A stretch of DNA of 63,890 nt, counting the filler, from Octopus bimaculoides (lineage: Eukaryota), in the NCBI RefSeq assembly GCF_001194135.2. It is 9 parts of 9 records of this genome, joined end to end, with 100 filler letters (N's around TTAATTAATTAA, not from the genome) between each part and the next. Parts side by side here need not be neighbours in the genome. Positions count along the whole stretch, not along the records: positions 1 to 9,570 come from NC_068994.1; positions 9,671 to 18,960 come from NC_068985.1; positions 19,061 to 44,723 come from NC_068990.1; positions 44,824 to 48,384 come from NC_068983.1; positions 48,485 to 50,521 come from NW_026329819.1; positions 50,622 to 55,749 come from NC_069003.1; positions 55,850 to 60,626 come from NC_068995.1; positions 60,727 to 62,702 come from NC_069004.1; 1 more part is not named here. One strand, given 5' to 3'. The notes under the pieces were generated by a model. It did no database searches and was not told the origin of the DNA. It saw only the letters and a list, made by a program, of their open reading frames with translations. The position numbers and the translations under genes were made by a program. Every line of letters starts with the position of its first letter. The stretch's first letter is position 1. Positions 6,846 through 62,702 of this stretch are shown one piece after another.

Positions 6846-7040
6846 ATCCAAACATGAACAAGCAAGAAAAAAACAACAACGCGAGGACGGGGAATAAGTA
6901 CTGTGTTACTGGACGCCCAGGAAAGGAAAGAAAAGAAAGAGGATTTCACGTTTCGAGCGGAGCTCTTCATCAGAAATATAGAAAAAGTCCAAAGAAGGGA
7001 AGACAGAGAAAGAAAATCGCCAACGATACACATGCGGTCA
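6846..7040 (-). mobile_element. Penelope-like terminal-repeat fragment
   Basis: Carries CTGATGAAGAGC...GCTCGAAACG, the hammerhead-type signature typical of Penelope-like pLTRs. No ORF. Confidence 0.55.
6943..6977 (-). ncRNA. Minimal type I hammerhead ribozyme-like motif H1
   Basis: ATTT-CTGATGA-A-GAGC/TCC/GCTC-GAAA-C-GT-G-AAAT: 4-bp stem I, canonical core, 4-bp stem II. The cleavage triplet reads GUG (non-NUH), so this copy is probably dead. Confidence 0.6.
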
Positions 7041-8099
7041 TGTACGTACACCCTTCTGCTTACCTTATAGTAAGTATGTATCTAAATTTTATACGACCCT
7101 TACTCTGTCTTTTATTCCCCCTCTCATTTTTCTTGCTCCCCCTCTCTCACATTTCTCAGACTTAGGGTATCCAGCTTTACATTACCGAGCGTGTTCTTCC
7201 TACATTTTTAAAGACAACAACGCATGTCACATGAGGCAATTTGGATGCTATTTCTTGCAACAAAAGCGAACGTTGGCGTAGTTACTGTTATGGTTACGGT
7301 TCGACTCCTCTTTCTCCTCCCTCCTATACCGAAGCCCCCCCTCTCTCTCTCTTACCATATTTCTTATTCTTACCTGACAGTTACATATAAAGGTTCTTCC
7401 CCTCTTAATATGTTTAAAAAAAGAAAATCTTCATTATTCTATCTGTCAATCTTAATTGCAGAAGAGTGAGGTGACCTACGTCTATGTATCTGATAAGACC
7501 TACCACATAATGAAAGATATTGCAAAAAATAGTTAATCTTGATATCCAACAAAGTATTAAAGGATGGGGGTAATATTTACAAGCGCTTATCTCCTTAGTA
7601 TCCTCCCAAGACACTGTATGCCTGTGAGCAACTACAGAGGAATGTAAATAATTTCATTTGCCAAAATATCGACTTACGGCATTCTCTCCTTCTACCGTCC
7701 ATCATTGTCAAACGATCCTTCTCTAAGTTTCTAAATAGGTTTACTTAATATTTGTTAAATTTTAACACGTTTAACGAAGTGGATATTTAAAAGGCGTTTG
7801 GTATGTAGTTAGTGTGCTTAAAGCGTGGGACTCACGATCGTGAGAACGGGGGTTCGACTCAGGGACTGGGCGGCAGATGTGTTGTATCCCTGGGGAAGTT
7901 ATTTCATTTTATGTTGCTCAGCTGAAAATTTACCTGCGTCTATTGCGGGGTGGCACCGCACAAACCAATAACTCCAAATCCTGAAAATACAAAATGTTAA
8001 CGGTCCTTGATGGTTACGGCACACTGGATGATGAATGAATGTTCATAAAGATGGCTAGATAAGCTAAATCATAAAAAGTGTTGCCCTGCAACGAAACAT

Positions 8100-8235
8100 T
8101 AGTATCATCAAGCTCACAGGCCTCGGAGGGGTTGCGATCATTGTCTCTGAGGACTGTCCTTCATTGGACCGAATAGCGGAGGGTGCCAGATCTTGCCTGT
8201 ACAAGGTGTGGTGAAAAGAAAGAGTTCGCGATGTA
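8100..8235 (-). mobile_element. Mariner transposase remnant
   Basis: HTLYRQDLAPS resembles HPPYSPDLAPS, followed after a frameshift by GPMKDS. Confidence 0.55.
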
Positions 8236-8267
8236 CTCTGGTTCATCCTAGCCATGGATTCTTACTC

Positions 8268-8430
8268 GTATGTTGGTGTATTTACGTCCCCTTAACCTAG
8301 CGGTTCGGCATAAGAGACCGATAGGATAAGTACTAGGCTTACAAAGAATAAGTCCAGGGGTCGATTTGCTCGACTAAAGACGGTGCTCCAGCATGGCCAC
8401 AGTCAAATGACTGAAACAAGTAAAAATAAA
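8268..8430 (+). mobile_element. SINE family A 3' tail
   Basis: TTTACGTCCCC..AACCTAGCGGTTCGGC...GGGGTCGATTTGCTCGACTAAAGACGGTGCTCCAGCATGGCC...GACTGAAACAAGTAAAA. Confidence 0.9.
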
Positions 8431-8607
8431 AATATGTATATGTTTATAATACTCACGCACACACACACATACAATGCATATGGGGGCAGATATGCATCCA
8501 CTTACATCCGTGGGAAGGAATGCGTTTGAATGCATATTCGAGACTACGTACGTCTTTATGGTATATGTGATTAGGTCATTGTATATGAAATTCATATTAA
8601 ATGCTTA

Positions 8608-9184
8608 CTACAAATATGTTTAAAATGTATTTAGTCTTGCTGAGCAAAGAAACCTAATGCTGGATTGTTGCTCTACGGCTCACCAAATATAATATCTTAC
8701 GATATTACTAGTTTACAACACGGCGAGATATTTTAAACATATTGATGTCTTACGTAAACATTGTGTATGTTTTCCCATACAAATTAGCAAACACGGTTTG
8801 ATAAGTATACAATTTGTATGAATGTACGAATATATATATATATATTGTGTGTGTGTGTGTGTGTGCGTGTGTGTGTGTGTACACACACACGTGTATACTT
8901 GTGTGTATGTATCTTCCAGTTTAATTCTCAAATTTCTCATCTATAGAGGAAGTGCCGGTTTCTAACCCGGAAGCAAAGCTCTCTCTTGGAATTTATACAA
9001 TATCAACTAGGCACTAAATTATGTATGCGAACATTGATACTCTTAAAACATCTCGCCGTGTTGTAAAGTAATAATATTGTTAAGATACTACCTATCCAAA
9101 TACATTTGGTGAGCCATAGAGCAACAATCAAGCGTTAAGTTTCATGGCGCAGAAGATTAAATACATTTTAAACATATTTGTTAG
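8608..9184. mobile_element. Foldback/MITE-like element with ~150-bp imperfect inverted arms
   Basis: 8610-8760 is the reverse complement of about 9025-9181 (e.g. CAAATATGTTTAAAATGTATTTA, GGCTCACCAAAT, TTTACAACACGGCGAGAT). Confidence 0.75.
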
Positions 9185-9234
9185 AAATACTATTGATGCT
9201 CTCACAAAGATATTTAATCACATTTGTCACGAAC

Positions 9235-9570
9235 GTAGATGTGGCTGTGCGGTAAGTAGCTTGCTTACCAACCACATGGTTCCGGGTTCTGTTCCATTGC
9301 GTGGCACCTTGGTCAAGTGTCTTCTACTATAGCCTCGGGCCGACCAAAGCCTTGTGAGTGGATTTGGTAGACGGAAAACTGAAAGAAGCCCGTCGTATAT
9401 ATGTATATATGTATATGTGTGTGTTTGTCCCCCCAAAATCGCTTGACAACCGATGCTGGTGTGTTTACGTCCCCGTAACTTAGCGATTCGGCAAAAGAGA
9501 CCGATAGAATAAGTACTAGGCTTACAAAGAATAAGTCCTGGGGTCGATTTGCTCGACTAAAGGCGGTGCT
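9235..9570 (+). mobile_element. SINE family A, near full length (tRNA head, CORE-like block, internal microsatellite, tail)
   Basis: GTGGCTGTGCGGTAAG...GGTTCCGGGTTC...GGCACCTTGGTCAAGTGTCTT, then (TA/TG)n, then the tail. The CACCTTGGGCAAGT block resembles the CORE domain reported for octopus OR-type SINEs. Confidence 0.9.
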
Positions 9571-9947
9571 NNNNNNNNNNNNNNNNNNNNNNNNNNNNNN
9601 NNNNNNNNNNNNNNTTAATTAATTAANNNNNNNNNNNNNNNNNNNNNNNNNNNNNNNNNNNNNNNNNNNNATATATATATCTGTGTATGTATATATGCGT
9701 CTAAGCACGAACAAATCAAAACATTTCGTCTAAGTATTATTTTCCTTTGAACTTCTATTTTCTTTTCTTTCTCTGAACAGTTATAACGGGCAAAGCTCAT
9801 TACGTCATTTTTCTCTAGACTGGAATGTATACTTTCCACGTTCATATTTGAATTTCTTGGCGTTTCAATACTTTTTCTCTGAGTTTTACTAATTCTAGAA
9901 CTTGATGGACATATAGCGGTACGCTCTATGTCAAATTTTGTATTTAT

Positions 9948-9987
9948 GTACCTGAAGAGACCAAGAACGGATCGAAACGTGTTGTAT
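9948..9987 (+). ncRNA. Minimal type I hammerhead ribozyme-like motif H2
   Basis: GTAC-CTGAAGA-GACC/AAGAAC/GG(A)TC-GAAA-C-GT-G-TT-GTAT: intact core, bulged stem II, 2-bp stem III, GUU triplet, 4-bp stem I. Confidence 0.55.
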
Positions 9988-10085
9988 CCAATAACGTCTA
10001 TTACGCAATCCATCTTCCATCTTATTAATACTATATATATATATATATATATACATACTGTTGTGTCTGGGGAGATTCATTTTCT

Positions 10086-10299
10086 TTTCGTGCCTTATAT
10101 AATTTAAGACATTCACCGGTAAAATTTCCACTTAGTTCTTATTTTTATTTCCCTAAATTTTCGGTTGCGTTTTGCAAACTTTTCAATAATCTTGACTATT
10201 GAAACGGTATCAAGACGCAACGAAAATTAAAAAAAAATAAAAATGAGAAATAAGTGTAAATTTTACCGGTGAATGTCTTAAATTATATAAGGCACGAAA
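10086..10299. repeat. Long hairpin: perfect 42-bp outer arms within ~85-bp imperfect arms
   Basis: 10086-10127 is the exact reverse complement of 10258-10299. Pairing continues imperfectly inward. Confidence 0.95.
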
Positions 10300-10343
10300 C
10301 TCACATAAAGAATCTGGTAAGCCAAATCACAAAACGATATATA

Positions 10344-10374
<31 letters not shown>

Positions 10375-10746
10375 TTACATGTGGATTTGAGGTTAAGAAA
10401 GCAGCTAAGGGATAGTACCTACCCAATATACTGCTGGTAGTGTAGCCAGTTATTCATAGCCAAGTGCTAGTTATTGCATGGAAATCTCGCAATTGAGTAT
10501 TATATAATGGTGGAGGTAACGTGTGGTTTACACGTATTTTATACAGCAAATAAGAAAACGGAGAGGATATAAAATCAGCAGTCATAAGCCTGTAAACATT
10601 CCAGTATGTCTATTCAAATGTATTGTATTTATATACACATATGTATGAGTGAAGGATGTGACAACATATAAGCATATAGAAACAAATGTGTAGCTTAGCA
10701 AAAGAGAAAATTGACAATAAACTGAATGGGTGTGTTGGTGCTAGTT

Positions 10747-10869
10747 CCTTACGGCTGTTTCTGCCAAGAGGCAACCAAATCTACCAGGGTATCTCCATTT
10801 TTTCAGTGTTGTGCAGAGATGAGCAGACAATGTTTGGAAAATGGGTGTGCCCCTAGGCTTCTTCAGAGG
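10747..10869 (-). ncRNA. Type I hammerhead-like motif H3 with extended stem II
   Basis: CCT-CTGAAGA-A-GCCTAGGGGCA...TGCCTCTTGGC-A-GAAA-C-AGCC-G-TA-AGG: 10 of 11 stem II positions pair, GUA triplet, 3-bp stem I. Confidence 0.55.
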
Positions 10870-11514
10870 GTTTAAGTGATTGAGAGTGAGGGTTAACATA
10901 TAAAAGTTAGTTAAGAATAGCTAAAGTGTGTTTATCCTTTCAAATAGAGTAGAATCAGAATAAGAGTAAGAGCAAGCACAAGAATACAAGTGGAATACAT
11001 CATTGTACAATGATTTGGGCATAGTAAGGGGAAGTAAGATACAGACTTCCTGTAATATTATAAGATCCATGTTATTTCATCCAGCGGTGAGTAGGTGAAA
11101 TTAGTCGTTCTGAGGAGGAGTTCATCCAGGAGGGATAATTTTAAGCATTAGTTTACATTGTGTTTCCATAGAACTTTAGTGGTGGGTTTGATCGTATGGT
11201 CTGTGTTAAAGAGGTGAAAGTTAATATGTAGAGTGCCAGTTAGTAGGTGTAGCGTTGCAGAGGGTATGACATAAGCAACTTATAATGAATATAACTTGTG
11301 AAAATTTAGTGCATGAGTCTATCAATGATAGAATAAAACTAGGTGAGGCCAAAATGCGGCGTTAGTGTTCGTTACTTTTTTGCTGATCAACAAATCTCGA
11401 AACCCGTATTCATAGTAGGGTAGGGTCATAGTCAGTCCTACAACCTAGAGATAACCTGGGAGATTTCGTTGCCGCTTGACAGAAACGGACGTAAGAAACT
11501 AGCACCTGCATACA

Positions 11515-11713
11515 TGTTGTGTAGACGCCCTCTGGCGATAAGTAGGTTAGTCCAATACGTATAAATAGCTAGACGAAAAGCGTCGAGCAGAGCGCAAGAG
11601 TGGAATAGCGGAAACCAGGACGGAGCCGTCGGTAGACTAGACGTCGAGTTCGGTATAGTCGAGTTGTCGGAAGTGAGAGTTGCGTAGAGGTTATCCGCAC
11701 GTGCGGTATAACA
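11515..11713. mobile_element. Solo LTR, 199 bp
   Basis: TGTT...AACA termini, internal TATAAATA, flanks ATACA/ATACC (5-bp TSD with one mismatch). The partner inverted arm supplies the empty site. Confidence 0.75.
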
Positions 11714-11909
11714 ATACCCATTCACTTTAGGGCTAATTTGCTCTTTTGTTCAGTTGCTCATTTGTTTCTATATACTTATATGTTCTCATCCCCTCCACTG
11801 ATACATGTGTGCATATTCATCCAATACATTTGAATAAATATACATAGTGCAATGTTTACAGTCTGATGTCTGCCGATTTTATATCCTCTCCGTTTTCTTA
11901 TTTGCTATA

Positions 11910-11912
11910 TGG

Positions 11913-11996
<84 letters not shown>

Positions 11997-12067
11997 TAAA
12001 TAACTAGCTAGCTATCTGTATATCTATCTCTCTACCTATCTACCTATCTATGTAGATAGATAGATAA

Positions 12068-12102
<35 letters not shown>

Positions 12103-12142
12103 CATACATACATACATACATACATACATACATACATACATA
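11910..12142. repeat. (TA)n,(GA)n,(TAGA)n,(TACA)n compound microsatellite
   Basis: Directly visible. Confidence 0.95.
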
Positions 12143-12166
12143 AGTAGATTGATACGCGAACAGGGA

Positions 12167-13543: not shown

Positions 13544-14264
13544 CTTACATCTGCTCCCTTATCAATCTATTTATGTATGTATGTATGTATGTATGTATGT
13601 ATGTATGTATATATGTATGTATGTATGTATGTATGCATGAATGTATGTATTCATGTATGTATGTATGCATGTGTCTATCTATTTATCTATCTATTTATCT
13701 ATCCATTTAGTATGGATTTGGTTGCTTTTTCCCTTTGTTATGGTGCTTGCAATCTTAGTCCCTTGCCCCTTTCTATGTCTTCTTATCTAAGCCAGTTTGT
13801 TTCTTTATCTTGCTTCTTTGTTTATTGTTTTATTTGATGCAATGTTATTAATTTTCTATTGTTCTCTTCGCCTTCACAAGTATCTGTACTGATGTGTCTT
13901 TCAAACTAATTTTTTCACAATACGAAATTTTGCAGATGAAGAATATCTGGGACAAAAGGACTAGGTGTGTGAGCGCAGATACGTATATCTGAGTAAATGT
14001 GTTTAGTCAGATTGACTTCTAGCGGGACGATCTCCCACGTTATTATGATATTTGTCATACGTTTCTCCTGGGTGGTTGTGTTGGTGTCTGCTGCTGGTGA
14101 TTTTCAGTGCATTTCGTTGTTGATAGATTTGCTGCTGCTGCTGCTGCTGCCGCTACTGTTGCCACTACTGCTGCTGTTTGCCCTGCTACTCTTTTATAGA
14201 TGCTGATGCTGCGGTGAAGGCGTTGGACGGCAGATGTGTTCTTCCAACACCTTTCATTTACAGA

Positions 14265-14710
14265 AGACAGTAAGCTCTTGGATAGTTTGAGTCCCCAAAT
14301 ATATAGCACATCGGTACCCAAATGCTTTGGAAAGTCCTAAGCGATTTGGAAGGTTGAACAAGAGAGGGATGGTTTCTATCCTACCATGGTCTGTCTTTCT
14401 AACAAGTTAGCACATTATTAATCCGAAAAGCTCATGCTGCATGACCAATTCTCCTTTCCCGGTCCGTGGTCCCACAATTTTGTTTTTGTCTGGCATATAA
14501 CACGGCCGCCATTAGCAAGAAGGTATTTACTGCAGGTTGTTCTTTAATTTGCCAACTTTCTGACAGTTATGTTGAAATTATATGTTCAGCGCCCTTTAAT
14601 GTTTCTGCTGAATTGTCTTCTTTGGTTTGGAATCTCACCTCAACTGTGACAAAAGCTCTTCCCTTCCAAGAGCAACATAGACTTTTATGTCGGCTCAAGG
14701 TCAAAGCATA
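14265..14710 (-). mobile_element. Decayed LINE ORF1/gag-like fragment
   Basis: One minus frame with several stops ends in PMCYIFGDSNYPRAYCL, a degenerate CX2CX4HX4C zinc knuckle. Confidence 0.4.
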
Positions 14711-18960: not shown

Positions 18961-19059
18961 NNNNNNNNNNNNNNNNNNNNNNNNNNNNNNNNNNNNNNNN
19001 NNNNTTAATTAATTAANNNNNNNNNNNNNNNNNNNNNNNNNNNNNNNNNNNNNNNNNNN

Positions 19060-19122
19060 NGCGATGATAATGATAATGCAGATGAGGTGGAGAGTGATGG
19101 ATAGTTATCGAAGAATATGAAA

Positions 19123-20629: not shown

Positions 20630-20810
20630 TATATATATTTGGAATTTATGAAAAAACAAAACAAAAGATGAAGACAGGTGTGTAAACAACAAACAGATGT
20701 ATTAGTTTAACACTCAGGAAGTGAGAAAGTCTTTTACATTTCGAGCCTATGCTCTTCCACAGAAAGAAACACAGAAATAAACAGTGCGAGAAAATGAAAA
20801 AAGGTTTAGG
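20630..20810 (-). mobile_element. Penelope-like terminal repeat (family with copies at 40420-40570 and 45520-45690)
   Basis: Reverse complement aligns with 45520-45690 (GAAGAGC.TAGGCTCGAAA.GTAAAAGAC...AAACTAATACA...ACACCTGTCTTC.TCTTTTGTTTTG). Confidence 0.65.
20730..20767 (-). ncRNA. Hammerhead-like motif H4 (CUGU core variant)
   Basis: TCTTT-CTGTGGA-A-GAGC/ATAG/GCTC-GAAA-T-GT-A-AAAGA: 5-bp stem I, 4-bp stem II, GUA triplet, U at core position 6. Confidence 0.5.
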
Positions 20811-21109: not shown

Positions 21110-21720
21110 ATCATCATCATCATCATCATCGTTTAACGTCCGCTTTCCATGCTAGCATGGGTTGGACGATTTGACTGAGGACTGGTGAAACCGGATGGCA
21201 ACACCAGGCTCCAGTCTGATTTGGCAGAGTTTCTACAGCTGGATGCCCTTCCTAACGCCAACCACTCAGAGAGTGTAGTGGGTGCTTTTACGTGTCACCC
21301 GCACGAAAACGGCCACGCTCGAAATNNNNNNNNNNNNNNNNNNNNNNNNNNNNNNNNNNNNNNNNAGTCATCGCCTCGGTGAGGCCCAATGTATGAAGGT
21401 CTTGCCTCACCACCTCAGCCCAGGTCTTCCTGGGCCTACCTCTTCCACGGGTTCCCTCAACTGTTAGGGTGTGGCACTTTTTCACGCAGCTATCCTCCTC
21501 CATTCTCACCACATGTCCATACCAGCGCAATCGTCTCTCTTGCACGCCACAACTGATGCTTCTAATGTTCAGCTTTTCTCTCAAGATACTTACACTCTGA
21601 CGGGTATTCACATTGACATTACACATCCAACGGAGCATACTGGCTTCATTCCTTGCGAGCTTACGTATGTCCTCAGCAGTTACAGCCCATGTTTCACTGC
21701 CATGTAGCATGGTTGTTCTA
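21110..21720 (-). mobile_element. RTE-clade LINE 3' end with 3' UTR ending in (GAT)n
   Basis: [10 protein letters not shown]...ASMLRWMC...[22 protein letters not shown]...[13 protein letters not shown] (21366-21718), then the tail GGTTGGCGTTAGGAAGGGCATCCAGCTGTAGAAAC...GGACGTTAAACGATGATG. Confidence 0.92.
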
Positions 21721-23318: not shown

Positions 23319-23492
23319 GTACATACATACATATATGTTTACGTATAGTAGCCCATAACTATAATTATATTTTTATTATTATATACGTAAAAGAATTAAT
23401 GTTACCTAAACAGTAATTTTTAAGTGCTAGGCCAGTGATATAATCATTTTTATGATTATATCCTTATCTAATAAATATATATATATAATCTT

Positions 23493-23762
23493 TTATCTTT
23501 TACTTCTTTCAGTCATTTGACTGAGGCCATGCTGGGGCACCATCTTGAACGGTTTTTTGTTAAACAAATTGACTCCAGGACTTATTTGTTAAGCCTAGTA
23601 CTAATTCTATCAGCCACTTTTGCCAAACCTCTAAGTTACAGGCAAGTAAACATGTCAACACTGGTTGTCAAGTGGTGGTGGTGGGACAAACACAGACTCA
23701 AAGAGCCCCCCCCACCATATATNNNNNNNNNNGACAAACACAGACTCAAAGAGCCCCCCCCA

Positions 23763-23803
<41 letters not shown>

Positions 23804-23980
23804 CCACACACACACACACACACACATACATACATGACGGTCTTCTTTCAGCTTCCATCTACCAAATCCACTAACAAGGCTTTGATTGGCCTTAGGCTGT
23901 AGCAGAAGACACTTGCCATGCAGTAGGACTGAACCTAGAACCATGTGGTTGGGAAGCTTGCATTTTACCACACAGCTATG
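23493..23980 (-). mobile_element. SINE family A, degenerate, with internal microsatellite
   Basis: Tail at 23493-23700, (TA)/(CA) tract, head at 23835-23980. Confidence 0.85.
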
Positions 23981-25150: not shown

Positions 25151-25579
25151 GTGTGGAAGCCTGCCACAGATACATAAATATATACATATATAATATTATA
25201 AATAATATATAAATATATATGCATATGTACATACACATATATATGTACACACATATATTTGTATATACGTGCACATATGGGCACAGGATACCACGGAACA
25301 TAAACAACATAAAATAAGCATAAAATACGAAAACAACATGAAACACGAAATATAACATGGAATATGAACCGTTTTTGTGAACAATGAAATAAACAAACGG
25401 AAAACAAGACAAGCAACATGAAAAAACGACCCTTCATCAGTTGTTGGCTGTTTTTGTACTCTGTATTTTGAGCATTTCACAAGATATGTTTTCGACATAA
25501 CAGTTGCTCCTGTAAATCAAATTAAATAAAATTTGGGATTTTTGTAGAGGGTTAAAGTTGGTGTATATATATATATATA

Positions 25580-25937
25580 CTCTTTATTCTTTTCCTTGTT
25601 TCAGTCTTTTGACTGTGGCCATGCTGGAGCACCGCCTTTAGTCGAGCANNNNNNNNNNNNNNNNNNNNNNNNNNNNNNNNNNNNNNNNNNNNNNNNNNNN
25701 NNNNNNNNNNNNNNNNNNNNNNNNNNNNNNNNNNNNNNNNNACAAACACATACACACATACATATATATATACATATATATGACGGGCTTCTTTCAGTTT
25801 CCGTCTACCAAATCCACTCACAAGGCTTTGGTCGGCCCGAGGCTATAGTAGAAGAGTCTTGCCCAAGATGCCATGTAGTGGGACTGAACTCGGGACCATG
25901 TGGTTGGTAAGCAAGCTACTTACCACACAGCCACTCC

Positions 25938-25938
<1 letters not shown>
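25580..25938 (-). mobile_element. SINE family A, gapped
   Basis: Tail end at 25580-25650 and head at 25778-25938. Confidence 0.85.
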
Positions 25939-25972
<34 letters not shown>

Positions 25973-39900: not shown

Positions 39901-40509
39901 TGGTGGTTGTGGTGGTGGTGGTGGTGGTATAGCAGATGTCAGAGATTGATTCATTATTCTGTTATTATATCATCTTGTTTCGGGATGAGGGTAGCTTAGT
40001 TGGCTAAGACAAATGACTGACAGGAGTAACATTCATATCTGGTTACCAACATTTCATTGTCCATAAGCAAGAGATGCCTGTATGTGTATATGTGTGTGTG
40101 TGTGTGTGTATCCTTGACTTGATATCACGTGATGGTTGTAAATGAGCGTAACCATTATACAAGCAATGTTATTTGTTTCCATTCTTCTGAGAAAAACATG
40201 TCTGTTTCAAGGGAATTATACCTTGCTTGGAAACAGGTGAGGATTGGTGACAGGAAGGGCATCCATCCATAGAAGTCTGCCTCAACAAATTCTATCTGAC
40301 ATAAGCAAGTATGGAAAAATATGATAATGATGATGATGAAAATGATGATGATGATGATGATGAGGAAGTATGGATAGCATGTCTGTTTATTTATCTGGCA
40401 TAAAATTGTAGAGAAAAAAAACAAAACAAAACAAAAAAGACAAAAGACAGGCAGCTGAGGGAATGACAAACAAGGCGTATTAGCTTGATGCTCGAGAGAA
40501 ATGGAAGAG

Positions 40510-40547
40510 TCTTTGATGTTTTGAGCGTATGCTCTCCTACAGAAAGG
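40510..40547 (-). ncRNA. Degenerate hammerhead-like motif H5 (CUGU family)
   Basis: CCTTT-CTGTAGG-A-GAGC/ATAC/GCTC-AAAA-C-AT-C-AAAG. Stems are retained but core positions 9, 12 and 16.2 are mutated. Confidence 0.35.
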
Positions 40548-40870
40548 AACGAGGAAAGAAAACAGATGGAGGAAGGAAAAAAGGAATGAAATATGGTACT
40601 TTATCATATTTACAAATGCTTTCTGGTCAAGACAACATGCCTTCTTTCATCTACCTTTCAGGAAATTTTTAACTAAGCTTTTGTAGGAAAGATATGTACA
40701 AATGTTAGTCATCGTATACCGAGGTAGATTTATCCTTCATGTACTTATGATTATAGAAGCTAAAGTTTTAAGCATTGACATAACTGAGTTTCTTTATAAT
40801 TCATGAATGTATTGATTTATAAATGTCATTTTATATGACAAAATAACTTATTGAGTTTTATTTATCATAG

Positions 40871-41724: not shown

Positions 41725-43254
41725 CCATGCAAATAGCTTTGGAGTGAAATTTAAGATTTCTTGGTTTCTGTGAATCAATTTTGATGAAACATTTCCCAGC
41801 TGGTTTGCAACACTATGGCAGCACCATGGCAACACTATGGCAACACCATTGTTATGGTTTCATTATTCTGTGTAATGCCCTTTCCTTTTTATTTCAGATT
41901 CTTCAGTTTTTGGGTGAACCACGCTAACAGAGTCTCTCCTCTCTAAGAACAATGGGACATGGAAAAGGTCTTAATGATGAAGAAAAGTCTGTCATCATCA
42001 AGGAAAGTGGTAAAGGCATCTCTCTTCATGTCATTGCAGAGGAATTAGGTTGTCATGTGGATACGGTTAGATGATTCCTGAAGGAACTTTTGCCAAGGAA
42101 GAAACGATCCGATTGTAGGACCTCCGAGATGGTGACAGCTAGGGATTTAAGGAATATTGGCTGCAAGGTACTTGGGAAACCTGGACAAATAAGCAAAGCT
42201 ATTTTCACCACCTCTGAACTTCCTCATGTATTGAAAACAACCAGAAATCACAGCCTTGGGATCATGGCTTCCATGCGAGAACCCCTAAAACTGTCTCCTC
42301 ACAAGAGTTCATGGCTTCATTGGACCCAAAAGTACAGGATGTTAGACATGAGTTGTGTTCTATTCACTGATGAAACCAGGGTGACTCTTGATGAACCTGA
42401 CAGTTTGGAAAATGGTTGCGTCTATTTTGGAGACGATCATCACCAACGTTTACGATGTCAACAACAGGGTAGAGGTGTCATGTTGGAGGCTGATATCATT
42501 GGGGACAGACTTGTTGGCCCAGTCAGGGTTTCTGAAGGGGTTAAAGTAACCACAGCTGCTTACTGCAATCCCCTGAAGGAGGTCTTAGATCCCTGGCTAG
42601 ATGACATACCACTGTCACTTTTAAGAGATTTTGTATTCATACATGACAATGCTCCCTCCCACTCTGTTAGGACCACCCAAACACAACTAGGGTCTTACAG
42701 CATACATGGTGAAAGGTTGATGGTGTAGCCACCAGCATTTCTGGTCCATCATTAAACAAAATGTTTATGCTGATGGACGCCAATTTATGTTGAAAGGTGT
42801 CTTATGGGTGACCATCAAAGCTGCAGCAGAAGCAATCCAACCTGCTACTAGTTAGAAATTGACAGATTCCATGACTAATCGAGTTTTTGAAGTTATCCAT
42901 CGAAATGGTGCTCGTGTGGTAAAATAATTCATTATGTCAATAAGTGTTATAACATTATTATGGACTTCTGCTAAGTATATACTCAATGTATGCTTAATAT
43001 GTATCATTAGCCTTCATTTTCTGAAAAACAAATGTCTAGATGGGCTATTTTCATTTGAAAGCTTTTAGCATGGTTCACCCAAAAACTGAAGAGTCTGAAA
43101 TGAAAAAGAAAGGATGTTACACAGAATAATAAAAACATAACAATGGTGTTGCCATCGTGTGCAAACCAGCTGGGAAATGTTTTATCAAAGTTTATTCACA
43201 GAAAACCAAGAAATCCTAAATCTTACTCCTAAGCTATTAGTATGGTTCTGGGTG
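41715..43254 (+). mobile_element. Tc1-like DNA transposon with ~200-bp TIRs, decayed (probably DD37E/TRT group)
   Basis: 41723-41927 is the reverse complement of 43066-43247. The right end abuts TA at 43255-43256; the left end is obscured by (CA)n. Confidence 0.9.
41952..42927 (+). pseudogene. Tc1 transposase pseudogene
   Basis: N-terminal HTH (ISLHVIAEELGCHVDTVR), VLFTDETRVTLD, RCQQQGRGVM, FIHDNAPSH. Contains stops, a frameshift, and a deletion of the SPDLNPIE block after *PPA. Confidence 0.9.
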
Positions 43255-44723: not shown

Positions 44724-44823
44724 NNNNNNNNNNNNNNNNNNNNNNNNNNNNNNNNNNNNNNNNNNNNTTAATTAATTAANNNNNNNNNNNNNNNNNNNNN
44801 NNNNNNNNNNNNNNNNNNNNNNN

Positions 44824-45332: not shown

Positions 45333-45688
45333 CTCACACCCGACCCGCCGTTTCCCATCACCTACCACCCCTCCACCCTTCCCCTGCCCCTCCAACTCAC
45401 CATTCTCCGTGTCTTCGGCGAATCCAGTCCGACTCCTTCACCTCGCACATCTTCCTCAACCTACCCCTTCTCCTTTCTAATTTTTTTCTAATCATTTGCC
45501 ATGCTTGACCGCTAACCTACAAAATTTTTTCTTCATTCTCTCTTTGTTTATTTTCTCTTGTTCCTTTCTGTTGAAGAGCGTAGGCTCGAAAGGTAAAAGA
45601 CATTTTCATTTTCCTGAGCGTCAAACTAATACACTTGTTTGTTGTTCATACACCTGTCTTCGTCTTTTGTTTTGCTATAAATTTCAAC

Positions 45689-45690
<2 letters not shown>
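45333..45690 (+). mobile_element. Penelope-like 3' region/terminal repeat
   Basis: C-rich segment followed by the repeat shared with 20630-20810 and 40420-40570. Confidence 0.6.
45564..45599 (+). ncRNA. Hammerhead-like motif H6 (CUGU core variant)
   Basis: CTTT-CTGTTGA-A-GAGC/GTAG/GCTC-GAAA-G-GT-A-AAAG: 4-bp stems I and II, GUA triplet; position 15.2 mismatched. Confidence 0.5.
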
Positions 45691-48180: not shown

Positions 48181-48484
48181 GTTTCAGCTTAGATCTGCGG
48201 CCATGCTGATGCACCACCATGTTGCTACACTGTTATTACAGGGAGCCTCTTACAATATGTGGCACTTGGTGAAGAATGGAGTTTGATTTAGCAACCCTCA
48301 TTTACACCTCCTGCCGCGAGGTAGGTTCATCTGGGACTCTCGATAGGAAGAGGTCCAGCTTTGATTTTAAAACTCCTACATCTANNNNNNNNNNNNNNNN
48401 NNNNNNNNNNNNNNNNNNNNNNNNNNNNTTAATTAATTAANNNNNNNNNNNNNNNNNNNNNNNNNNNNNNNNNNNNNNNNNNNN

Positions 48485-50521: not shown

Positions 50522-50621
50522 NNNNNNNNNNNNNNNNNNNNNNNNNNNNNNNNNNNNNNNNNNNNTTAATTAATTAANNNNNNNNNNNNNNNNNNNNNNN
50601 NNNNNNNNNNNNNNNNNNNNN

Positions 50622-55392: not shown

Positions 55393-55426
<34 letters not shown>

Positions 55427-57235
55427 TATCAATCAGTTTCATTTCTGTATTTCTTGTCCATAGAGAAAGAGCCGGACTCTAACATAGATTCAAGGCTCCT
55501 TCATTGGAACTTTTATCAACATCATCTAGGTATTTGTGCATGTGTGTGTGTGTGCAGTATTTGGTGTTAGTGTATGCGCAGATTTGTATGTTTGTTTTAT
55601 GGATGCGTTTTTATGTCTAGATGCATGCATATGTATTTATGTGCTAAATGTTTGGAAAGTTTTACATATCTTTACATTTCCATTGATGGCTTGAATCTGT
55701 AGTATTCTAATCAGCCTTTTTCTTTCAGGTTTTGAGAACCCCAATTTTTNNNNNNNNNNNNNNNNNNNNNNNNNNNNNNNNNNNNNNNNNNNNTTAATTA
55801 ATTAANNNNNNNNNNNNNNNNNNNNNNNNNNNNNNNNNNNNNNNNNNNNTATCTATCTATCTATCTAACTAACTAACTATCTATCCATTTGTCTGTCTGT
55901 CTGTCTATCGCTCTCCTTCTCTTTCTCTTTCTATATATATATATGTATGTATGTATAGAGAGCGAGAGAGAGTGAGAGAAACACAGACTGATACAAAGAG
56001 TGGGGGAGACGTGTTGTTTTGCGAACGACTGTGTTTTTCTGTTTATATGTGCGTAGGAGAATTTATATATCTGTGTACAACAATAAATATGCATTTTTAT
56101 GTTCACTGATATTATATATAACATTGTATTTATATAAGATATCTGCGTTTACTGTTACGCAAATACAATCACGTACACCACATTCCTATACACGCAGGCA
56201 TACGCGTACACATATACACAAGCACACATATACACACAGACACACACACATGCAATGGTGACCAGCCTGATTATATTACATTTCATTCTTCGATTATTTG
56301 ATATCCTCTACGTCATCACCACTACCATCACTCCTCTTCCATCTTGTTCATTTGGTTATGTAATTGTCTCCCCCTTCGACAACGTCCTCCATATTGTCAA
56401 CGTTGCCATCTTTGACTTTTCATCAGATTTGCTCAGTGGAACTTGGGTAACTTGGGTGAATATCCTGGACTGATGTCAAGGGTTGACGTCGCTCTGATAG
56501 TCTTTGTTCACGACTACATGGAAGTATATAAATAAATAAATATTTAACTACATCATATATATATATATATATANNNNNNNNNNNNNNNNNNNNNNNNNNN
56601 NNNNNNNNNNNNNNNNNNNNNNNNNNNNNNNNNNNNNNNNNNNNNNNNNNNNNNNNNNNNNNNNNNNNNNNNNNNNNNNNNNNNNNNNNNNNNNNNNNNN
56701 NNNNNNNNNNNNNNNNNNNNNNNNNNNNNNNNNNNNNNNNNNNNNNNNNNNNNNNNNNNNNNNNNNNNNNNNNNNNNNNNNNNNNNNNNNNNNNNNNNNN
56801 NNNNNNNNNNNNNNNNNNNNNNNNNNNNNNNNNNNNNNNNNNNNNNNNNNNNNNNNNNNNNNNNNNNNNNNNNNNNNNNNNNNNNNNNNNNNNNNNNNNN
56901 NNNNNNNNNNNNNNNNNNNNNNNNNNNNNNNNNNNNNNNNNNNNNNNNNNNNNNNNNNNNNNNNNNNNNNNNNNNNNNNNNNNNNNNNNNNNNNNNNNNN
57001 NNNNNNNNNNNNNNNNNNNNNNNNNNNNNNNNNNNNNNNNNNGGTATATAAATGCATACACGCACACACACACATACGCCTACACGAATATACACATATA
57101 TTTATGTAAATAGACAGGTATAGGTGTATGTGTGTATATAGTATAAATATACATAAGTAGGTATATATATATATATATATATATGTGTGTATGTAAGGAT
57201 CGAAACGTTGTATGGAACTTTGTAACTATATAAAT

Positions 57236-57273
<38 letters not shown>

Positions 57274-57963
57274 AAGTGTGTGCGTACGTAGGTGTGTGTG
57301 TGCTGCCTCTCTATGTATGTGTGTGTGTATATGTGTAGTTGCGAGTGTGTGCGTGTGTAACTCATGTTTTTTTGTCTTTCTTTTTTCTTTCCGTGAATTT
57401 AGTGATGTGAATGTGGCCATGCGATCACAAAGACCCTTGAATATATTCTAAGCCAACTGAAAGGACCAGCAACTGGGACAGTCGCAGGGGGCGCCACATA
57501 CCACTTAGGGGAGCATTGTTATATATAAGGAAAAATTATGAAAGTAATTGCTTAAGCAAAATCTTTACCGCCAATATTTGATAAATTGCAAATTATATCT
57601 TCTCTTTAAGAGTTTCTTTAATTGGTGTTGTAATTAACTATTTATTTCGATATTCAAAGATTTATTCTTCAATGTAAAACATTTTTGAAACTTGTAAGGT
57701 TGGTAGCACCCTTAGAGCCGTACCTGATACACTATATAACATGCATATATACACTCATATATATACATACATAAATACATGCACACATGCACATTTGCAA
57801 ACATACATACGTTTAAATACATAAATACATATATACATTTAGAGATATTCCTTCATATATTCGTATGCATACAAACAGACAAGTATATACGCATACAGTG
57901 CATACATTCGCACACATGCATATGCATACATGCATATATATGTGTATATATATATACATATAT

Positions 57964-57998
<35 letters not shown>

Positions 57999-58133
57999 CA
58001 CACACACACATCTCGTATATATGTTTGTATGACAGGAGCAAAACTTTGTATCGAACTTTGAAAGTATATAAATGTGCATGTCCTGTGTGTGTGTCTATGT
58101 ATGCCCACGTGTGAGTGCGTGTCTATATAAAGG

Positions 58134-58172
<39 letters not shown>

Positions 58173-58814
58173 NNNNNNNNNNNNNNNNNNNNNNNNNNNN
58201 NNNNNNNNNNNNNNNNNNNNNNNNNNNNNNNNNNNNNNNNNNNNNNNNNNNNNNNNNNNNNNNNNNNNNNNNNNNNNNNNNNNNNNNNNNNNNNNNNNNN
58301 NNNNNNNNNNNNNNNNNNNNNNNNNNNNNNNNNNNNNNNNNNNNNNNNNNNNNNNNNNNNNNNNNNNNNNNNNNNNNNNNNNNNNNNNNNNNNNNNNNNN
58401 NNNNNNNNNNNNNNNNNNNNNNNNNNNNNNNNNNNNNNNNNNNNNNNNNNNNNNNNNNNNNNNNNNNNNNNNNNNNNNNNNNNNNNNNNNNNNNNNNNNN
58501 NNNNNNNNNNNNNNNNNNNNNNNNNNNNNNNNNNNNNNNNNNNNNNNNNNNNNNNNNNNNNNNNNNNNNNNNNNNNNNNNNNNNNNNNNNNNNNNNNNNN
58601 NNNNNNNNNNNNNNNNNNNNNNNNNNNNNNNNNNNNNNNNNNNNNNNNNNNNNNNNNNNNNNNNNNNNNNNNNNNNNNNNNNNNNNNNNNNNNNNNNNNN
58701 NNNNNNNNNNNNNNNNNNNNNNNNNNNNNNNNNNNNNNNNNNNNNNNNNNNNNNNNNNNNNNNNNNNNNNNNNNNNNNNNATATATATATACAGATATAT
58801 ATGCAGAGAGGGAG

Positions 58815-59226
58815 AGGAGTGAGAGAAGGATACAAAAAGAAAGAAAAAAAAGGAAAGAAAAAGAAAGAAAGAAAGAAAGAAAGAACGAAAGAAAGAAAGG
58901 AAGGCAGAAAGAAAGGACGAATGAAAGAGGATAATTAAATAAATTGAAGAGTTGTAGCGAGAGAATTATGGGAATGATTGAAATAAAGAAACGAATGAAG
59001 GAAGGAATAACGTAAAGAAGGAAAATATGAAAGAGAAATCAAGGAAGGGCAGCAGAAAGGAAATAAGTAAAGGAATGTAGATGGAAATCGGTGAGAATGA
59101 AAGTTAGGAATGATCTATAGACGATATTGGAGGAGGAGGAAGAAGAAGAAGAAGAAGAAGAAGAAGAAGAAGAAGAAGAAGAAGAAGAAGAAGAAGAAGA
59201 AGAAGAAGAAGAAGAAGAAGAAGAAG
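58815..59226. repeat. Purine-rich (GAAA)n/(GAA)n tract
   Basis: Directly visible; includes a long pure (GAA)n run at about 59140-59226. Confidence 0.95.
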
Positions 59227-59228
59227 GA

Positions 59229-59540
59229 CTATAACCTCGGGCCAACCAAAGCCTTGTGAGTGGATTTGGTAGACGGAAACTGAAAGAAGCCCGTCGTATA
59301 TATGTGTATATATGTATGTATGTTTGTATATATGTTTGTGTGTCTGTGTTTGTCCCCCAAGCATTGCTTGACAACCGATGGTGGTGTGGTTACGTCCCCG
59401 TAACGTAGCGGTTCGGCAAAAGAGACCGATAGAATAAGAACTAGGCTTCCAAAGAATAAGTCCTGGGGTCGATTTGCTCGACTAAAAAGGTGGTGCTCCA
59501 GCATGGCCGCAGTCAAATGACTGAAACAAGTAAAAGAGAG
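59229..59540 (+). mobile_element. SINE family A, 5'-truncated, CpGs intact
   Basis: CTATAACCTCGGGCCAACCAAAGCC...AAGCCCGTCGTATA, microsatellite, full tail. Confidence 0.9.
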
Positions 59541-60494
59541 AAAAGAGAGAAAAGTGAAAAAGTGAAAAGGAAGAAGTGATTAATGGAGTGAAGGAGTTAA
59601 CAAATGAGTGAGCGAAAGAAAGAAAAGTTATGATTGTGTACTAAACAGGAAGAAGAAAAAGACAAAGGAAATAACAAGACTTTATCAGAGTAAGTGTAAA
59701 AAGGTAGGAAATTAGGAATGAATTCCATGTTGAATGAATCAATGAATGAAGTTACAAAATGAGAGAAAAGAAAGACAGAAAAATAAAGAACGAATAAGGT
59801 ACAAAAGAAAGAACGAATAAAGTACAAAAAAAAGAAAGAACGAACGAGTAATGTACGAAAGGCAGAAATATGAAAGGAGACTGAAATAAACGCCATCATT
59901 TTTAACCGGCACTATGCTAGTATTAATACGGCTTCTGATTTGGGTACAAAGAGAACAATTTTGATAGGAGCTAGTTTATAGCATCAGCCGAAGAACTTTA
60001 CTGGTACTTTATTTAATAGACCCTGAAATCACGAAGTGCATAGTTGTCCTCGGTGGTGCATAGTTGAACTCGGTACGTAAAGAGCCGGAATAAATACTGC
60101 ATGATATCAAGACTAAATATCTCTGGTAACAATGAATTTTATAAAAAGTAGTACAATTTTTAGTGAATAAAGGAAATAAATTATGCCACCGCTATACATT
60201 TTCCGGTCTGGTTTTATATGAGTCAGGTTTAAAAATATTTTTCATAAAACACTCAAGTGCCTTTCATCCTATCGGTGTCGATAAAATAAGTACCAGTTGA
60301 GCAGTGGAGTCGATGTAATCGACTTACCCATCCCCTGAAATTGTTGGCCTTTTGCCAAAAATGAAACCGTTGTTATCATTTCGGTTATACTGCAGCAAAG
60401 ATTCTGACAAGGAAAATAAAATACGTAAATTTGTTTATTAAATACGTAGCGATGTGCTTATGTGTAAGTGAGTATTCTCTGAAGATAATCGTCG

Positions 60495-60626
60495 ATCACA
60501 TGGTTCCGGGTTCAGTCCCACTGCGTGGCACCTTGGGCAAGTGTCTTCTACTATAGCCTCGAGCCGATCAAAGCCTTGTGAGTGGATTTGGTAGACGGAA
60601 AGTGAAAGAAGCCCGTCGTATATATA
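60495..60626 (+). mobile_element. SINE family A head
   Basis: CACATGGTTCCGGGTTCAGTCCCACTGCGTGGCACCTTGGGCAAGTGTCTTC. Confidence 0.9.
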
Positions 60627-60726
60627 NNNNNNNNNNNNNNNNNNNNNNNNNNNNNNNNNNNNNNNNNNNNTTAATTAATTAANNNNNNNNNNNNNNNNNN
60701 NNNNNNNNNNNNNNNNNNNNNNNNNN

Positions 60727-61013
60727 ACGTAAACACGCCAGCGTCGGTTGTCAAGCGATGTTGGGGGGACAAACACAGACACACAAACACACACATACAT
60801 ATCTATACATATACATATCCGACGGGCTTCTTTCAGTTTCCGTCTACCAACTCTACTCACAAGGCTTTGGTCGGCCCGAGGCTAAAGTAGAAGACACTTG
60901 CCCAAGGTGCCACGCAGTGGGAGTGAACCCGGAACCATGTGGTTGGTAATCAAGCTACTTACCACACAGCCACTCCTGCGCCTAGCTACTTACCACATAG
61001 CCACTCCTGCGCC
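60727..61013 (-). mobile_element. SINE family A with a tandemly duplicated 31-nt 5' end
   Basis: AGCTACTTACCACA(C/T)AGCCACTCCTGCGCC occurs twice, at 60953-60983 and 60984-61013. Confidence 0.9.
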
Positions 61014-61054
61014 AATATATATATATATATATATATATGCGCACACATACATAT

Positions 61055-61221
61055 ATGATGGGCTTCCACGCAGTTTCTATCTACCATACTCGCTCACAGG
61101 ACATTGGTGATCCTGGAGCAATAGTGGAAGACACTTATCCAAGGTACCGCGAAGTGGGTCTGAACCCAAAACTCCATGGTCAGGCTGCGTACTTCTTAAC
61201 CACATAGCCATGTCTGCGCCT
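61055..61221 (-). mobile_element. SINE family A-related head
   Basis: GAAGACACTTATCCAAGGTACC...CTTCTTAACCACATAGCCATGTCTGCGCCT. Confidence 0.75.
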
Positions 61222-62347
61222 AGAGCCAAAACTTCTAACTAGATAGAAAGAGCAAAGAGCAAGCTCTGTCCCTATCTCCTATTCGTGGAATATCTATATT
61301 TGAACGGGTTTGGACGAGTTAACTCAATCACCAGTGCTTGATCAGTATTTATTTCTCCAGCCCTTGCTAGGATTTGAACTCAGAGATAGTAAATTAAGAG
61401 TAACCGTAACAACTGCAAGTCAGTTTATCCCAAAACCTTAGCAGTTCTACCACAATAACGCTAGGCTCGTGTTGGGTAACCCATTAATGCCGGTGTGGTA
61501 TTTAAGAGCTTCCTGAAGCAAAAATGGTCCACCCCAGCCTTGTTATATATATATGTGTGTGTGTGTGTATTCCTGTTTATATAGATTTGTGAATGTCAAC
61601 ATAATTATCTTGAAATTACACATGAAAACCGTACATTTCACAACATCCTAAAACAATAGAATTGTTTGTCTTTCGGTAAAAAGAATTCCTGTAGACACTT
61701 TCGAGAAGCGCCATTACGTTAAAACAACAACAGCACCAATAAAAAAAAACAACTACTACAACAACAACAACAACAACAGCAACAACAACAACGAAACTCC
61801 TTTCTGCAAACATTAAGGCTTATTTACAATTTACTTTGGTGTTTTTGAAATGCCTTCTTCATTGGCCAGGAATGTAACCTTTTAGCAGAGTTTTGGGTAG
61901 GGGATTGATACGCATACACACATATATACATACATACAAACATACATATATACATATATATATATATACATATATATTTGTGCGTGTGTGTCTGTGTGTG
62001 TCTGTGTGTGTATGAATATATGTATATATGTATACACACAGACACACACGCAGACGTGTGTATATGTGTTATTCTTTCATTTTTGTTTGTCTATGATGAC
62101 CTTTAGCCCTTTAAATGATTCATCCCCAGCAGAAATTGTTTGGGTTCTTATAAAGGATCCGTGTTGTTGTTGTTGTTGTCGCTTTGTATTTCCATTAAAA
62201 AAATATAAAACAAAAATGTTTTGTGTCGTCAATAAAACAACAACGAAAGCAACAGTTTAGTGCTTATAGTGAGTATTATACAAGGAGTATTAATGAATAC
62301 CGTGCAGTGCTTATACTGAGTACTCTGCAGTATTTATAGTGAGTATG

Positions 62348-62570
62348 TTGGTGTGTTTACGTCTCCGTAACTTAGCGGTTCGGTAAAAGATATCGATAGA
62401 ATAAATACTCGGCTTGGCTTACAAAGAATAAGTCCTGGGGTCGATTTGTTTGACTAAAGGCGGTGCACCAGCATGGCCGCAGTCAAATGACTGAAACAAG
62501 TAAAAGAATCAAAAGAATATATATTGCTCCAGCATGGCCGCAGTCATATGATTGAAGCAAATAAAAGAAT
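62348..62570 (+). mobile_element. SINE family A tail with a duplicated 3' end
   Basis: CCAGCATGGCCGCAGTCA..TGA.TGAA.CAA.TAAAAGAAT is present twice. Confidence 0.88.
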
Positions 62571-62573
62571 ATT

Positions 62574-62608
<35 letters not shown>

Positions 62609-62624
62609 TTTATTTAAAAGCAGC

Positions 62625-62702
62625 AGAAATATAACAAAAGACTGTTGTCCGACGAACGGGAACGTGAAACTCCGAGTAACAGTTTTTTGTTATTATATTT
62701 CT
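62625..62702 (+). ncRNA. Type I hammerhead-like motif H7 within a long hairpin
   Basis: AGAAATATAACAAAAGACTGTTGT-CCGACGA-ACG/GGAA/CGT-GAAA-CTC-C-GAG-TA-ACAGTTTTTTGTTATTATATTTCT: ~20-bp extended stem I, palindromic stem III, GUA triplet, C at core position 4. Confidence 0.55.

What the first reader, a model, noticed from the sequence alone, without database searches (positions are those of the whole stretch)
6943..62702. A repertoire of seven hammerhead-ribozyme-like folds from at least four different repeat families
Seen: seven loci (6943-6977 -, 9948-9987 +, 10747-10869 -, 20730-20767 -, 40510-40547 -, 45564-45599 +, 62625-62702 +) follow the same order: stem I, C(U/C)G(A/U)NGA, paired stem II, GAAA, short or palindromic stem III, GU-H, then a complementary stem I. 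Known: Penelope-like elements carry minimal type I hammerheads with a very short stem III that work as dimers, and non-autonomous retrozymes produce ribozyme-processed RNAs. Inference: this genome holds several distinct hammerhead-bearing repeat families, some with unusual cores, that could generate self-cleaved or circular RNAs. I cannot verify whether these particular families have been described.
Basis: partly seen in the sequence, partly recalled or inferred. Interest (0 to 1): 0.82.

Follow-up and report, generated by a model that had tools for sequence, protein, structure and literature searches.

The report
Penelope remnants carrying altered hammerhead ribozymes
The seven hammerhead-ribozyme folds are really in the DNA, most carry damaging changes, and they are likely scattered tail-end remnants of Penelope-like jumping genes (a known arrangement); the one twist is a very abundant repeat family that likely spread despite a changed letter in its ribozyme core.

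Summary
The seven motifs are present; a relaxed descriptor finds 4 against 0.29 in shuffles. They fit the minimal type I hammerheads known from Penelope-like elements (PLEs; Cervera and de la Peña 2014). Loci 4-6 are one dispersed family and locus 1 a distant relative. That family lays 8,855 and 15,098 contigs in two organisms, with depth peaking on the core. Copy 6 has a PLE ORF remnant 211 nt upstream, without the endonuclease part. Five of seven loci break the core consensus, none has a same-strand partner nearby, and two RNA-seq runs show no read-end pile-up or circle joint. So these copies are most likely inert remnants, not working retrozymes. The twist: the abundant family carries U instead of the invariant A6 in 3 of 3 copies, probably family-wide; I did not find this in print, but one key paper was unreadable. 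The host is octopus-like. This scan has noted PLE hammerheads in other genomes, but no look-alike of these sequences. Cleavage is untested.

The parts
6943..6977 (-). Locus 1: minimal hammerhead, A6 core, unpaired A after position 9, 4-bp stems I and II, but G at position 17; distant relative of family A
   Evidence: 20-22 of 28 core letters shared with loci 4-6, flanks 41-48%
9948..9987 (+). Locus 2: hammerhead with intact core, bulged stem II, GUU site; 44 nt before a (TA)n run
   Evidence: only strict-descriptor hit; Rfam Hammerhead_1 21.6 bits, below gathering
10747..10869 (-). Locus 3: hammerhead with intact core, extra A on both sides of a long (about 95 nt) stem II, 3-bp stem I, GUA site
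   Evidence: 10 of 11 proximal stem II pairs, 38 of 200,000 shuffles as good
11448..11910 (+). Inverted partner copy of the locus 3 element; starts in the 3' half of stem II, holds an extra stretch of about 200 bp
20653..20808 (-). Family A copy with locus 4 (20730-20767): U6 core, C15.2>U
40432..40588 (-). Family A copy with locus 5 (40510-40547): U6, G9, A12, broken 15.2-16.2 pair; most decayed
45348..45472 (+). Frameshifted remnant (about 40 codons) of the PLE ORF region between reverse transcriptase and endonuclease (TYHP motif)
   Evidence: score 50-51 against window-wide null maxima 27.5-37.8 (0 of 40) and local null 0 of 2000; missed by tblastn and hmmsearch
45523..45676 (+). Family A copy with locus 6 (45564-45599): U6 core, C15.2>G; T-rich tail, then (TA)n
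62625..62702 (+). Locus 7: AT-rich imperfect hairpin whose centre has hammerhead order with C4, 3-bp stem II, near-palindromic stem III, GUA site; abuts an assembly gap
   Evidence: no Rfam hammerhead match

Best explanation
The seven folds are hammerhead motifs of the minimal type I layout, five of them with core changes, and they are likely dispersed 3'-end remnants of several Penelope-like retroelement families that would no longer cut RNA where they now lie. In the parent elements two such motifs in a tandem transcript would pair through the palindromic stem III and cut after GUH (established for PLEs; inferred here). Target-primed reverse transcription by the parent's protein would have left short 5'-truncated copies in AT-rich DNA, which then decayed, often at CpG (inferred). 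Family A (loci 4-6) was copied from a master that already had U at position 6 (shown by three divergent copies; family-wide majority inferred) and, in at least one copy, lacked the endonuclease region (shown), so it probably spread non-autonomously with a weakened or dead ribozyme (inferred).
For: Layout matches the published min-HHR: unpaired base after position 9, G10.1-C11.1, palindromic 15.2-16.2, U-rich 5' flank (PMC4209133). Family A is high-copy in two organisms; majority C at 45592 (92, 84, 77, 78 in 100) restores the ACGU palindrome; depth peaks on the core. PLE ORF remnant in the same orientation 211 nt upstream of locus 6, against 676 and 690 nt in two loci with the endonuclease region. 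71 metagenome loci with the same core and stem II but a different, still paired stem I; two carry a PLE ORF just upstream, and the closely matching Acropora motif is listed as Neptune in Cervera's supplement. Locus 3 has an inverted truncated partner, a PLE hallmark (PMC8557442). No end pile-up or circle joint in two RNA runs. Hammerhead mutants of an Anolis PLE still insert in vitro (PMC11167929).
Against: PLE coding evidence exists for one locus only; none upstream of loci 1-5, and the one hit for the locus 3 upstream frame was an unrelated tandem-repeat ORF. The linker motif was chosen from recall before it was scored, and standard tblastn and hmmsearch missed it. Loci 2, 3 and 7 have no genome-wide family data. 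Only 2 of 71 metagenome loci show a PLE ORF. The position-6 share was not printed (40 rows shown, 112 hidden). No cleavage assay; the Anolis ribozyme cuts only with its protein, so inactivity cannot be read from sequence alone.
Confidence: 0.75

Rival explanations
1. Family A is a functional core variant: its U6 hammerhead still cuts as a dimer, helped by the PLE protein or by Mn2+, and cleavage was part of how the family spread.
For: Stems, C3-G8, GAAA and the palindrome are kept in the family majority in two organisms; natural A6C hammerheads keep low activity and prefer Mn2+ (PMC7151607, PMC3088659); the Anolis PLE ribozyme is protein-assisted.
Against: Copies inherit a master's sequence without selection, so conservation among copies shows no function; all 71 related metagenome loci (where the pattern allowed A or U) have A6; no read-end pile-up.
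Confidence: 0.15
2. The loci are monomers of active non-LTR retrozymes that make self-cleaved linear and circular RNAs.
For: Retrozymes derive from PLE pLTRs and leave dispersed monomers (bioRxiv 10.64898/2026.07.22.740005); locus 7 has an extended stem I and a longer stem III, closer to canonical motifs; family A is present in RNA (2,233 and 2,349 reads).
Against: No tandem array at any locus in the self-comparison; family A has the minimal, not the canonical, layout that PMC7229834 ties to retrozymes; RNA reads lie in both orientations about equally, 91 in 100 run on into unlike sequence, and no back-joint is listed.
Confidence: 0.07
3. Loci 2, 3 and 7, which lack family data, are chance folds in AT-rich repeat DNA; only family A and locus 1 are real hammerhead derivatives.
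For: Locus 2 is reached by 5 of 100 shuffles and is below Rfam's gathering score; the hammerhead fold is not the predicted minimum for loci 2, 3 and 7; locus 7 lies in a plain hairpin next to a gap and has no look-alike.
Against: Locus 3 stem II pairing (38 of 200,000) and a partner copy that keeps the 3' core half; a 17-nt near-copy of the 3' half of locus 2 at 57197-57213; locus 7 passes descriptor D, null mean 0.06. Minimal hammerheads are not expected to be stable as monomers.
Confidence: 0.15

Closest known systems
Minimal type I hammerheads of metazoan Penelope-like elements (Cervera and de la Peña 2014, PMC4209133; Neptune motif of Acropora digitifera in its Table S1 and Fig. S3)
   Same: Type I order, unpaired base after position 9, G10.1-C11.1, no real stem III but a palindrome, U-rich 5' flank, many families per genome, mostly solo copies, inverted pairs nearby, an extra A before GAAA in one listed motif (as in locus 3).
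   Different: Family A has U6 (all 56 listed motifs have A6, but the descriptor required it); locus 7 has C4; locus 3 has a stem II of about 95 nt; no cephalopod is among the 40 species listed; no full PLE is in the window.
Neptune-clade PLEs (RT, linker, C-terminal GIY-YIG; Craig et al. 2021, PMC8557442)
   Same: ORF remnant upstream of locus 6 matches the post-RT linker of RT + GIY-YIG proteins; hammerhead near the 3' end; two of three family A copies end at (TA)n.
   Different: The endonuclease region (about 470 nt) is missing between linker and hammerhead in copy 6; clade placement rests on 40 codons and the ribozyme likeness, not on an RT tree.
Non-LTR retrozymes of animals (Cervera and de la Peña 2020, PMC7229834; Li, Clavereau and Pollet 2026 preprint)
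   Same: Short, non-coding, AT-rich, hammerhead-bearing, PLE-related repeats.
   Different: No tandem arrays, no canonical loop-loop hammerhead shown, no circular RNA evidence.
Natural hammerhead core variants A6C (phage Bcep176) and U4C (viroid) (PMC3088659, PMC7151607)
   Same: Change at the same core positions as family A (6) and locus 7 (4).
   Different: Those are single tested ribozymes with A6C; here A6U sits in a high-copy animal repeat and is untested.

Membership tests
PLE minimal hammerhead | Core C3 U4 G5 A6 N7 G8 A9 | tested here: not met
   Met at loci 1, 2, 3; not at 4, 5, 6 (U6; locus 5 also G9) or 7 (C4)
PLE minimal hammerhead | G12 A13 A14 A15.1, U16.1, H17 | tested here: inconclusive
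   Met at 5 of 7 loci; locus 1 has G17, locus 5 A12. Family A majority is GAAAC-GU with A or U at 17
PLE minimal hammerhead | Unpaired base after position 9 and G10.1-C11.1 | tested here: met
   Loci 1, 3, 4, 5, 6; locus 2 has G-C without the extra base; locus 7 has neither
PLE minimal hammerhead | Palindromic 15.1-16.1 segment for dimer pairing | tested here: met
   Locus 1 and the family A majority give ACGU; broken in copies 4, 5, 6; imperfect at 2, 3, 7
PLE minimal hammerhead | Self-cleavage as a dimer | not testable with these tools
   No assay; no read-end pile-up for family A in two RNA runs
Penelope-like element (Neptune type) | ORF with telomerase-like RT | tested here: not met
   No RT block above controls anywhere in the window; only truncated remnants are present
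Penelope-like element (Neptune type) | Post-RT linker upstream of the hammerhead, same strand | tested here: met
   45348-45472, locus 6 only
Penelope-like element (Neptune type) | C-terminal GIY-YIG endonuclease | tested here: not met
   No match near any locus; missing between linker and hammerhead in copy 6
Penelope-like element (Neptune type) | Partial tandem or inverted truncated copies | tested here: inconclusive
   Inverted partner at locus 3 only; none for family A in the window
Non-LTR retrozyme | Head-to-tail tandem units each with a hammerhead | tested here: not met
   None in the window; rest of the genome not held
Non-LTR retrozyme | Abundant unit-length circular RNA | tested here: inconclusive
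   No back-joint in two RNA runs for family A; library selection unknown

The most novel reading that the evidence does not exclude
An octopus lineage holds a very high-copy, endonuclease-deleted Neptune derivative whose hammerhead has A6U fixed family-wide in at least two organisms, and the fold was kept not as a free ribozyme but as a protein-assisted or metal-shifted catalyst, or as the handle by which the PLE protein recognises the RNA. It would be a natural experiment, with thousands of copies and an A6 sister lineage, on what the PLE hammerhead is for.
Probability: 0.2. Interest if true: 0.6.

Novelty: new variant of a known kind. Interest (0 to 1): 0.33.

Why it matters
Solo minimal hammerheads in animal genomes are known and number in the thousands per genome, so the repertoire itself is ordinary. 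Why PLEs keep a hammerhead is still open: Naiads lack it and Anolis mutants insert in vitro without it. A family that amplified massively with a changed invariant base, next to an A6 relative in the same genome, makes that question testable with two short RNAs, and shows that strict descriptors and Rfam undercount these motifs in cephalopods.

Tried and rejected
Whole genome: none held. First descriptor left out the unpaired base after position 9 and found only locus 7; replaced. Pfam on six frames around the loci (48 frames; the stretch upstream of locus 7 not included): no PLE family. Idea that the frame upstream of locus 3 is a GIY-YIG end: one phmmer hit, a 65-residue tandem-repeat ORF with summed score; frameshift-aware score 30.6, reached by 3 of 60 shuffles: not supported. 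Word search with one frame upstream of locus 6: 29 candidates, none scored. tblastn and hmmsearch with 122 PLE proteins: nothing above the reversed control. Extension of the ORF remnant from 45473 to 45545: 16 of 500 shuffles as good, not accepted. Family A pattern in viral contigs: 0. Locus 7 pattern in viral contigs: 11 matches without stem I or GUH context, taken as chance. Model R1 ranks loci 1, 4, 6, 5 first, but its training loci were fetched with a pattern drawn from these copies, so it is not independent; it finds no further locus. No RNA holder listed for the family A stretch in the index. Folding z-scores were uninformative except loci 6 and 7. Alternative register for locus 6 with U3 was rejected by eye because both stems break. 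Covariation could not be tested: four window copies, and metagenome loci fixed by the pattern. Lunse et al. (RNA Biol 14:1499) was not held.
Full report
The window. It is 63,890 bases of AT-rich, microsatellite-dense draft assembly with 7,014 N and many dispersed repeats. No whole genome is held. A LINE fragment at 21366-21719 has one named close match, an Octopus vulgaris protein at 82% identity over 47% of the query, so the host is octopus-like; this is one hit, not an identification.

Observation. All seven stretches are present in the stated order. A strict descriptor finds locus 2 alone (mean 0.06 in shuffles, 5 of 100 reach 1). Allowing any base at 17 adds locus 1 (1 of 100 reach 2). A relaxed one finds loci 1, 3, 4, 7 (mean 0.29, 0 of 100 reach 4), though it was loosened with the loci in view. 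Loci 5 and 6 pass none of the four. Five of seven break the core consensus: locus 1 has G17; loci 4-6 have U6; locus 5 also G9 and A12; locus 7 has C4. Copies 4, 5 and 6 have also lost the 15.2-16.2 Watson-Crick pair, two of them by changes typical of CpG decay (my reading). Rfam Hammerhead_1 scores locus 2 at 21.6 bits against a cut-off of 34 and nothing at loci 3, 6, 7.

Family A. Loci 4, 5 and 6 are copies of one repeat of about 155 bp. Locus 1 shares 20-22 of 28 core letters with them but only 41-48% of the flanks, with one recognisable block downstream: a distant relative. I laid four runs on 45340-45690 at 80% likeness (4 of 24 runs listed). 8,855 contigs of organism A and 15,098 of organism C were laid; this is not a copy number, but it shows a high-copy family in two organisms. 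Depth peaks on the core: in RNA run X21, 865 and 818 at 45568-45579 against 408 and 424 at 45616-45627 and 264 and 250 at 45544-45555; X22 and both DNA runs show the same shape. At 45592 the majority is C (92, 84, 77 and 78 in 100), which restores the ACGU palindrome; at 45595 (position 17) U replaces A in 22-46 in 100, both allowed. No row for position 6 (45571) is among the 40 shown; 112 are hidden, and every shown row reaches about 28 in 100 in some run, so I infer that U6 is the majority among sequences like copy 6. That is an inference from the ordering, not a printed number. Independently, three copies that differ at 15-40% of their flanks all have U6, so it was inherited from a master.

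Link to Penelope-like elements. A pattern with the family A core and stem II, allowing A or U at 6, found 71 loci in metagenome contigs. All 71 have A6, and most pair stem I as GCU/AGC where family A has UUU/AAA. Two of 71 carry a PLE ORF just upstream: one scores GIY-YIG at E 0.0018, below Pfam's cut-off, the other has homologues with RT, PF26215 and GIY-YIG domains. 17 of 71 have an inverted partial copy within 300 nt. Cervera's supplement lists a closely matching Acropora motif as Neptune. With 122 such proteins, tblastn and hmmsearch found nothing in the window above a reversed control. A frameshift-aware profile scan of the post-RT linker, a block I picked from recall of PLE proteins, gave 50.0 ending at 45472 on the strand of locus 6; the next best in the window was 29.1 and in reversed controls 33.3. 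0 of 40 shuffled windows (maxima 27.5-37.8) and 0 of 2000 local shuffles reached it; of 16 tiles over the protein only this region stood clear of controls. The alignment covers 45348-45472 with one frameshift. The TYHP motif lies 211 nt before the core, against 676 and 690 nt in the two metagenome loci, so about 470 nt, the endonuclease region, are missing. One search shows the remnant is multi-copy (up to about 50 contigs) and lists diverged contigs spanning 45473-45649, but none of the listed pieces bridges the whole join, so a deleted lineage and a private deletion both remain open. No PLE coding signal was found upstream of loci 1-5.

Loci 2, 3 and 7. Locus 2 has an intact core and ends 44 nt before (TA)n; a near-copy of its 3' half lies at 57197-57213. 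Locus 3 has an intact core and 10 of 11 pairs at the base of a long stem II (38 of 200,000 shuffles). An inverted partner at 11448-11910 keeps the 3' core half; the two stem III loops differ in a way that points to a palindromic ancestor (inference). Inverted truncated copies are typical of PLE insertions (PMC8557442). Its upstream DNA did not prove to be coding. Locus 7 is a strong hairpin (z -5.3) whose hammerhead fold is far from the minimum; it abuts a gap and has no known relatives. It is the weakest case. None of the three could be tested genome-wide.

Expression. 2,233 of 12.9 million and 2,349 of 12.0 million reads lie on the family A stretch, in both orientations about equally; 91 in 100 run on into unlike sequence; no place with many ends and no back-joint is listed. 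This fits passive transcription inside host RNAs. It is a weak negative: strandedness and selection of the libraries are unknown, and the Anolis PLE also shows no ends in RNA-seq although it cleaves in vitro with its protein.

Mechanism. Shown: motifs, lesions, family structure, ORF remnant, lack of tandem partners in the window. From the literature: PLE minimal hammerheads cut weakly and only as dimers (PMC4209133); the Anolis one needs protein and is dispensable for insertion in vitro (PMC11167929); changes at position 6 lower activity (PMC3088659, PMC7151607; tested for C, not U). Inferred: these are truncated insertions made by PLE proteins, now decaying; family A spread from a U6 master, probably with little or no cleavage. 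I put this at 0.75, an active U6 variant at 0.15 and active retrozymes at 0.07; that loci 2, 3, 7 are chance folds, a partly separate question, at 0.15.

Novelty. Families of solo minimal hammerheads are described across metazoans, with thousands per genome; the giant squid annotation lists 235 Hammerhead_1 hits and Octopus repeat surveys report PLE expansions without mentioning ribozymes. All 56 motifs in Cervera's Fig. S3 have A6, as its descriptor required, and none is from a cephalopod. Searches for hammerhead + Penelope + octopus, hammerhead + cephalopod + ribozyme, A6U, the U6 core string and octopus + Neptune gave no description of this family or of A6U. Lunse et al., the largest survey of PLE hammerhead variants, was not held and may cover it; Repbase and Dfam could not be searched; preprint supplements are closed. 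I file it as a new variant of a known kind with interest 0.33.

What I saw of each paper: PMC4209133, main text parts 1-3 of 4 and supplement parts 1-2 of 3; PMC11167929, parts 1-2 of 4; PMC7151607, part 1 of 4; bioRxiv 10.64898/2026.07.22.740005, part 1 of 5 and passages; PMC8557442, PMC6765202, PMC3088659, PMC7229834, PMC6962438, PMC13282606 and PMC8967140, passages; Lunse et al., only its citation in PMC6765202. Hammerhead numbering and the CpG reading are from my own knowledge. Earlier notes of this scan: none for this genome, no relevant look-alike, 358 notes with both words in other genomes, 8 shown; they did not change my reading.

Noticed in passing
window 10083-10300: Long imperfect inverted repeat of about 215 bp, MITE-like; it draws plant miRNA-hairpin matches below gathering scores.
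   Followed up: no
window 11507-11715: GC-rich stretch of about 200 bp present in the inverted partner of locus 3 but not in locus 3 itself; an insertion or a deletion, origin unknown.
   Followed up: no
window 57197-57213: Near-copy of the 3' half of the locus 2 hammerhead, embedded in microsatellite; the 5' half is absent.
   Followed up: partly
window 21366-21719 (-): Open fragment resembling the end of a LINE protein (family label recalled); 82 relatives, one named from Octopus vulgaris.
   Followed up: partly
window 42075-42728 (+): 217-codon frame that looks by eye like a decayed Tc1/mariner transposase (label recalled, not tested).
   Followed up: no
window 9571-9670, 18961-19060, 44724-44823, 48385-48484, 50522-50621, 55750-55849, 60627-60726, 62703-62802: Eight identical scaffolding spacers (44 N, 12 fixed bases, 44 N); locus 7 ends flush against one, so its 3' context is lost.
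   Followed up: no
window 8270-9570, 23470-23980, 25560-25940, 59228-59546, 60497-60987, 62343-62594: Several very abundant short dispersed repeats, probably SINEs, with many copies in the window.
   Followed up: no
L007, L010, L011, L012 and others: 17 of 71 metagenome loci have an inverted partial copy of the hammerhead directly upstream, often nested.
   Followed up: partly
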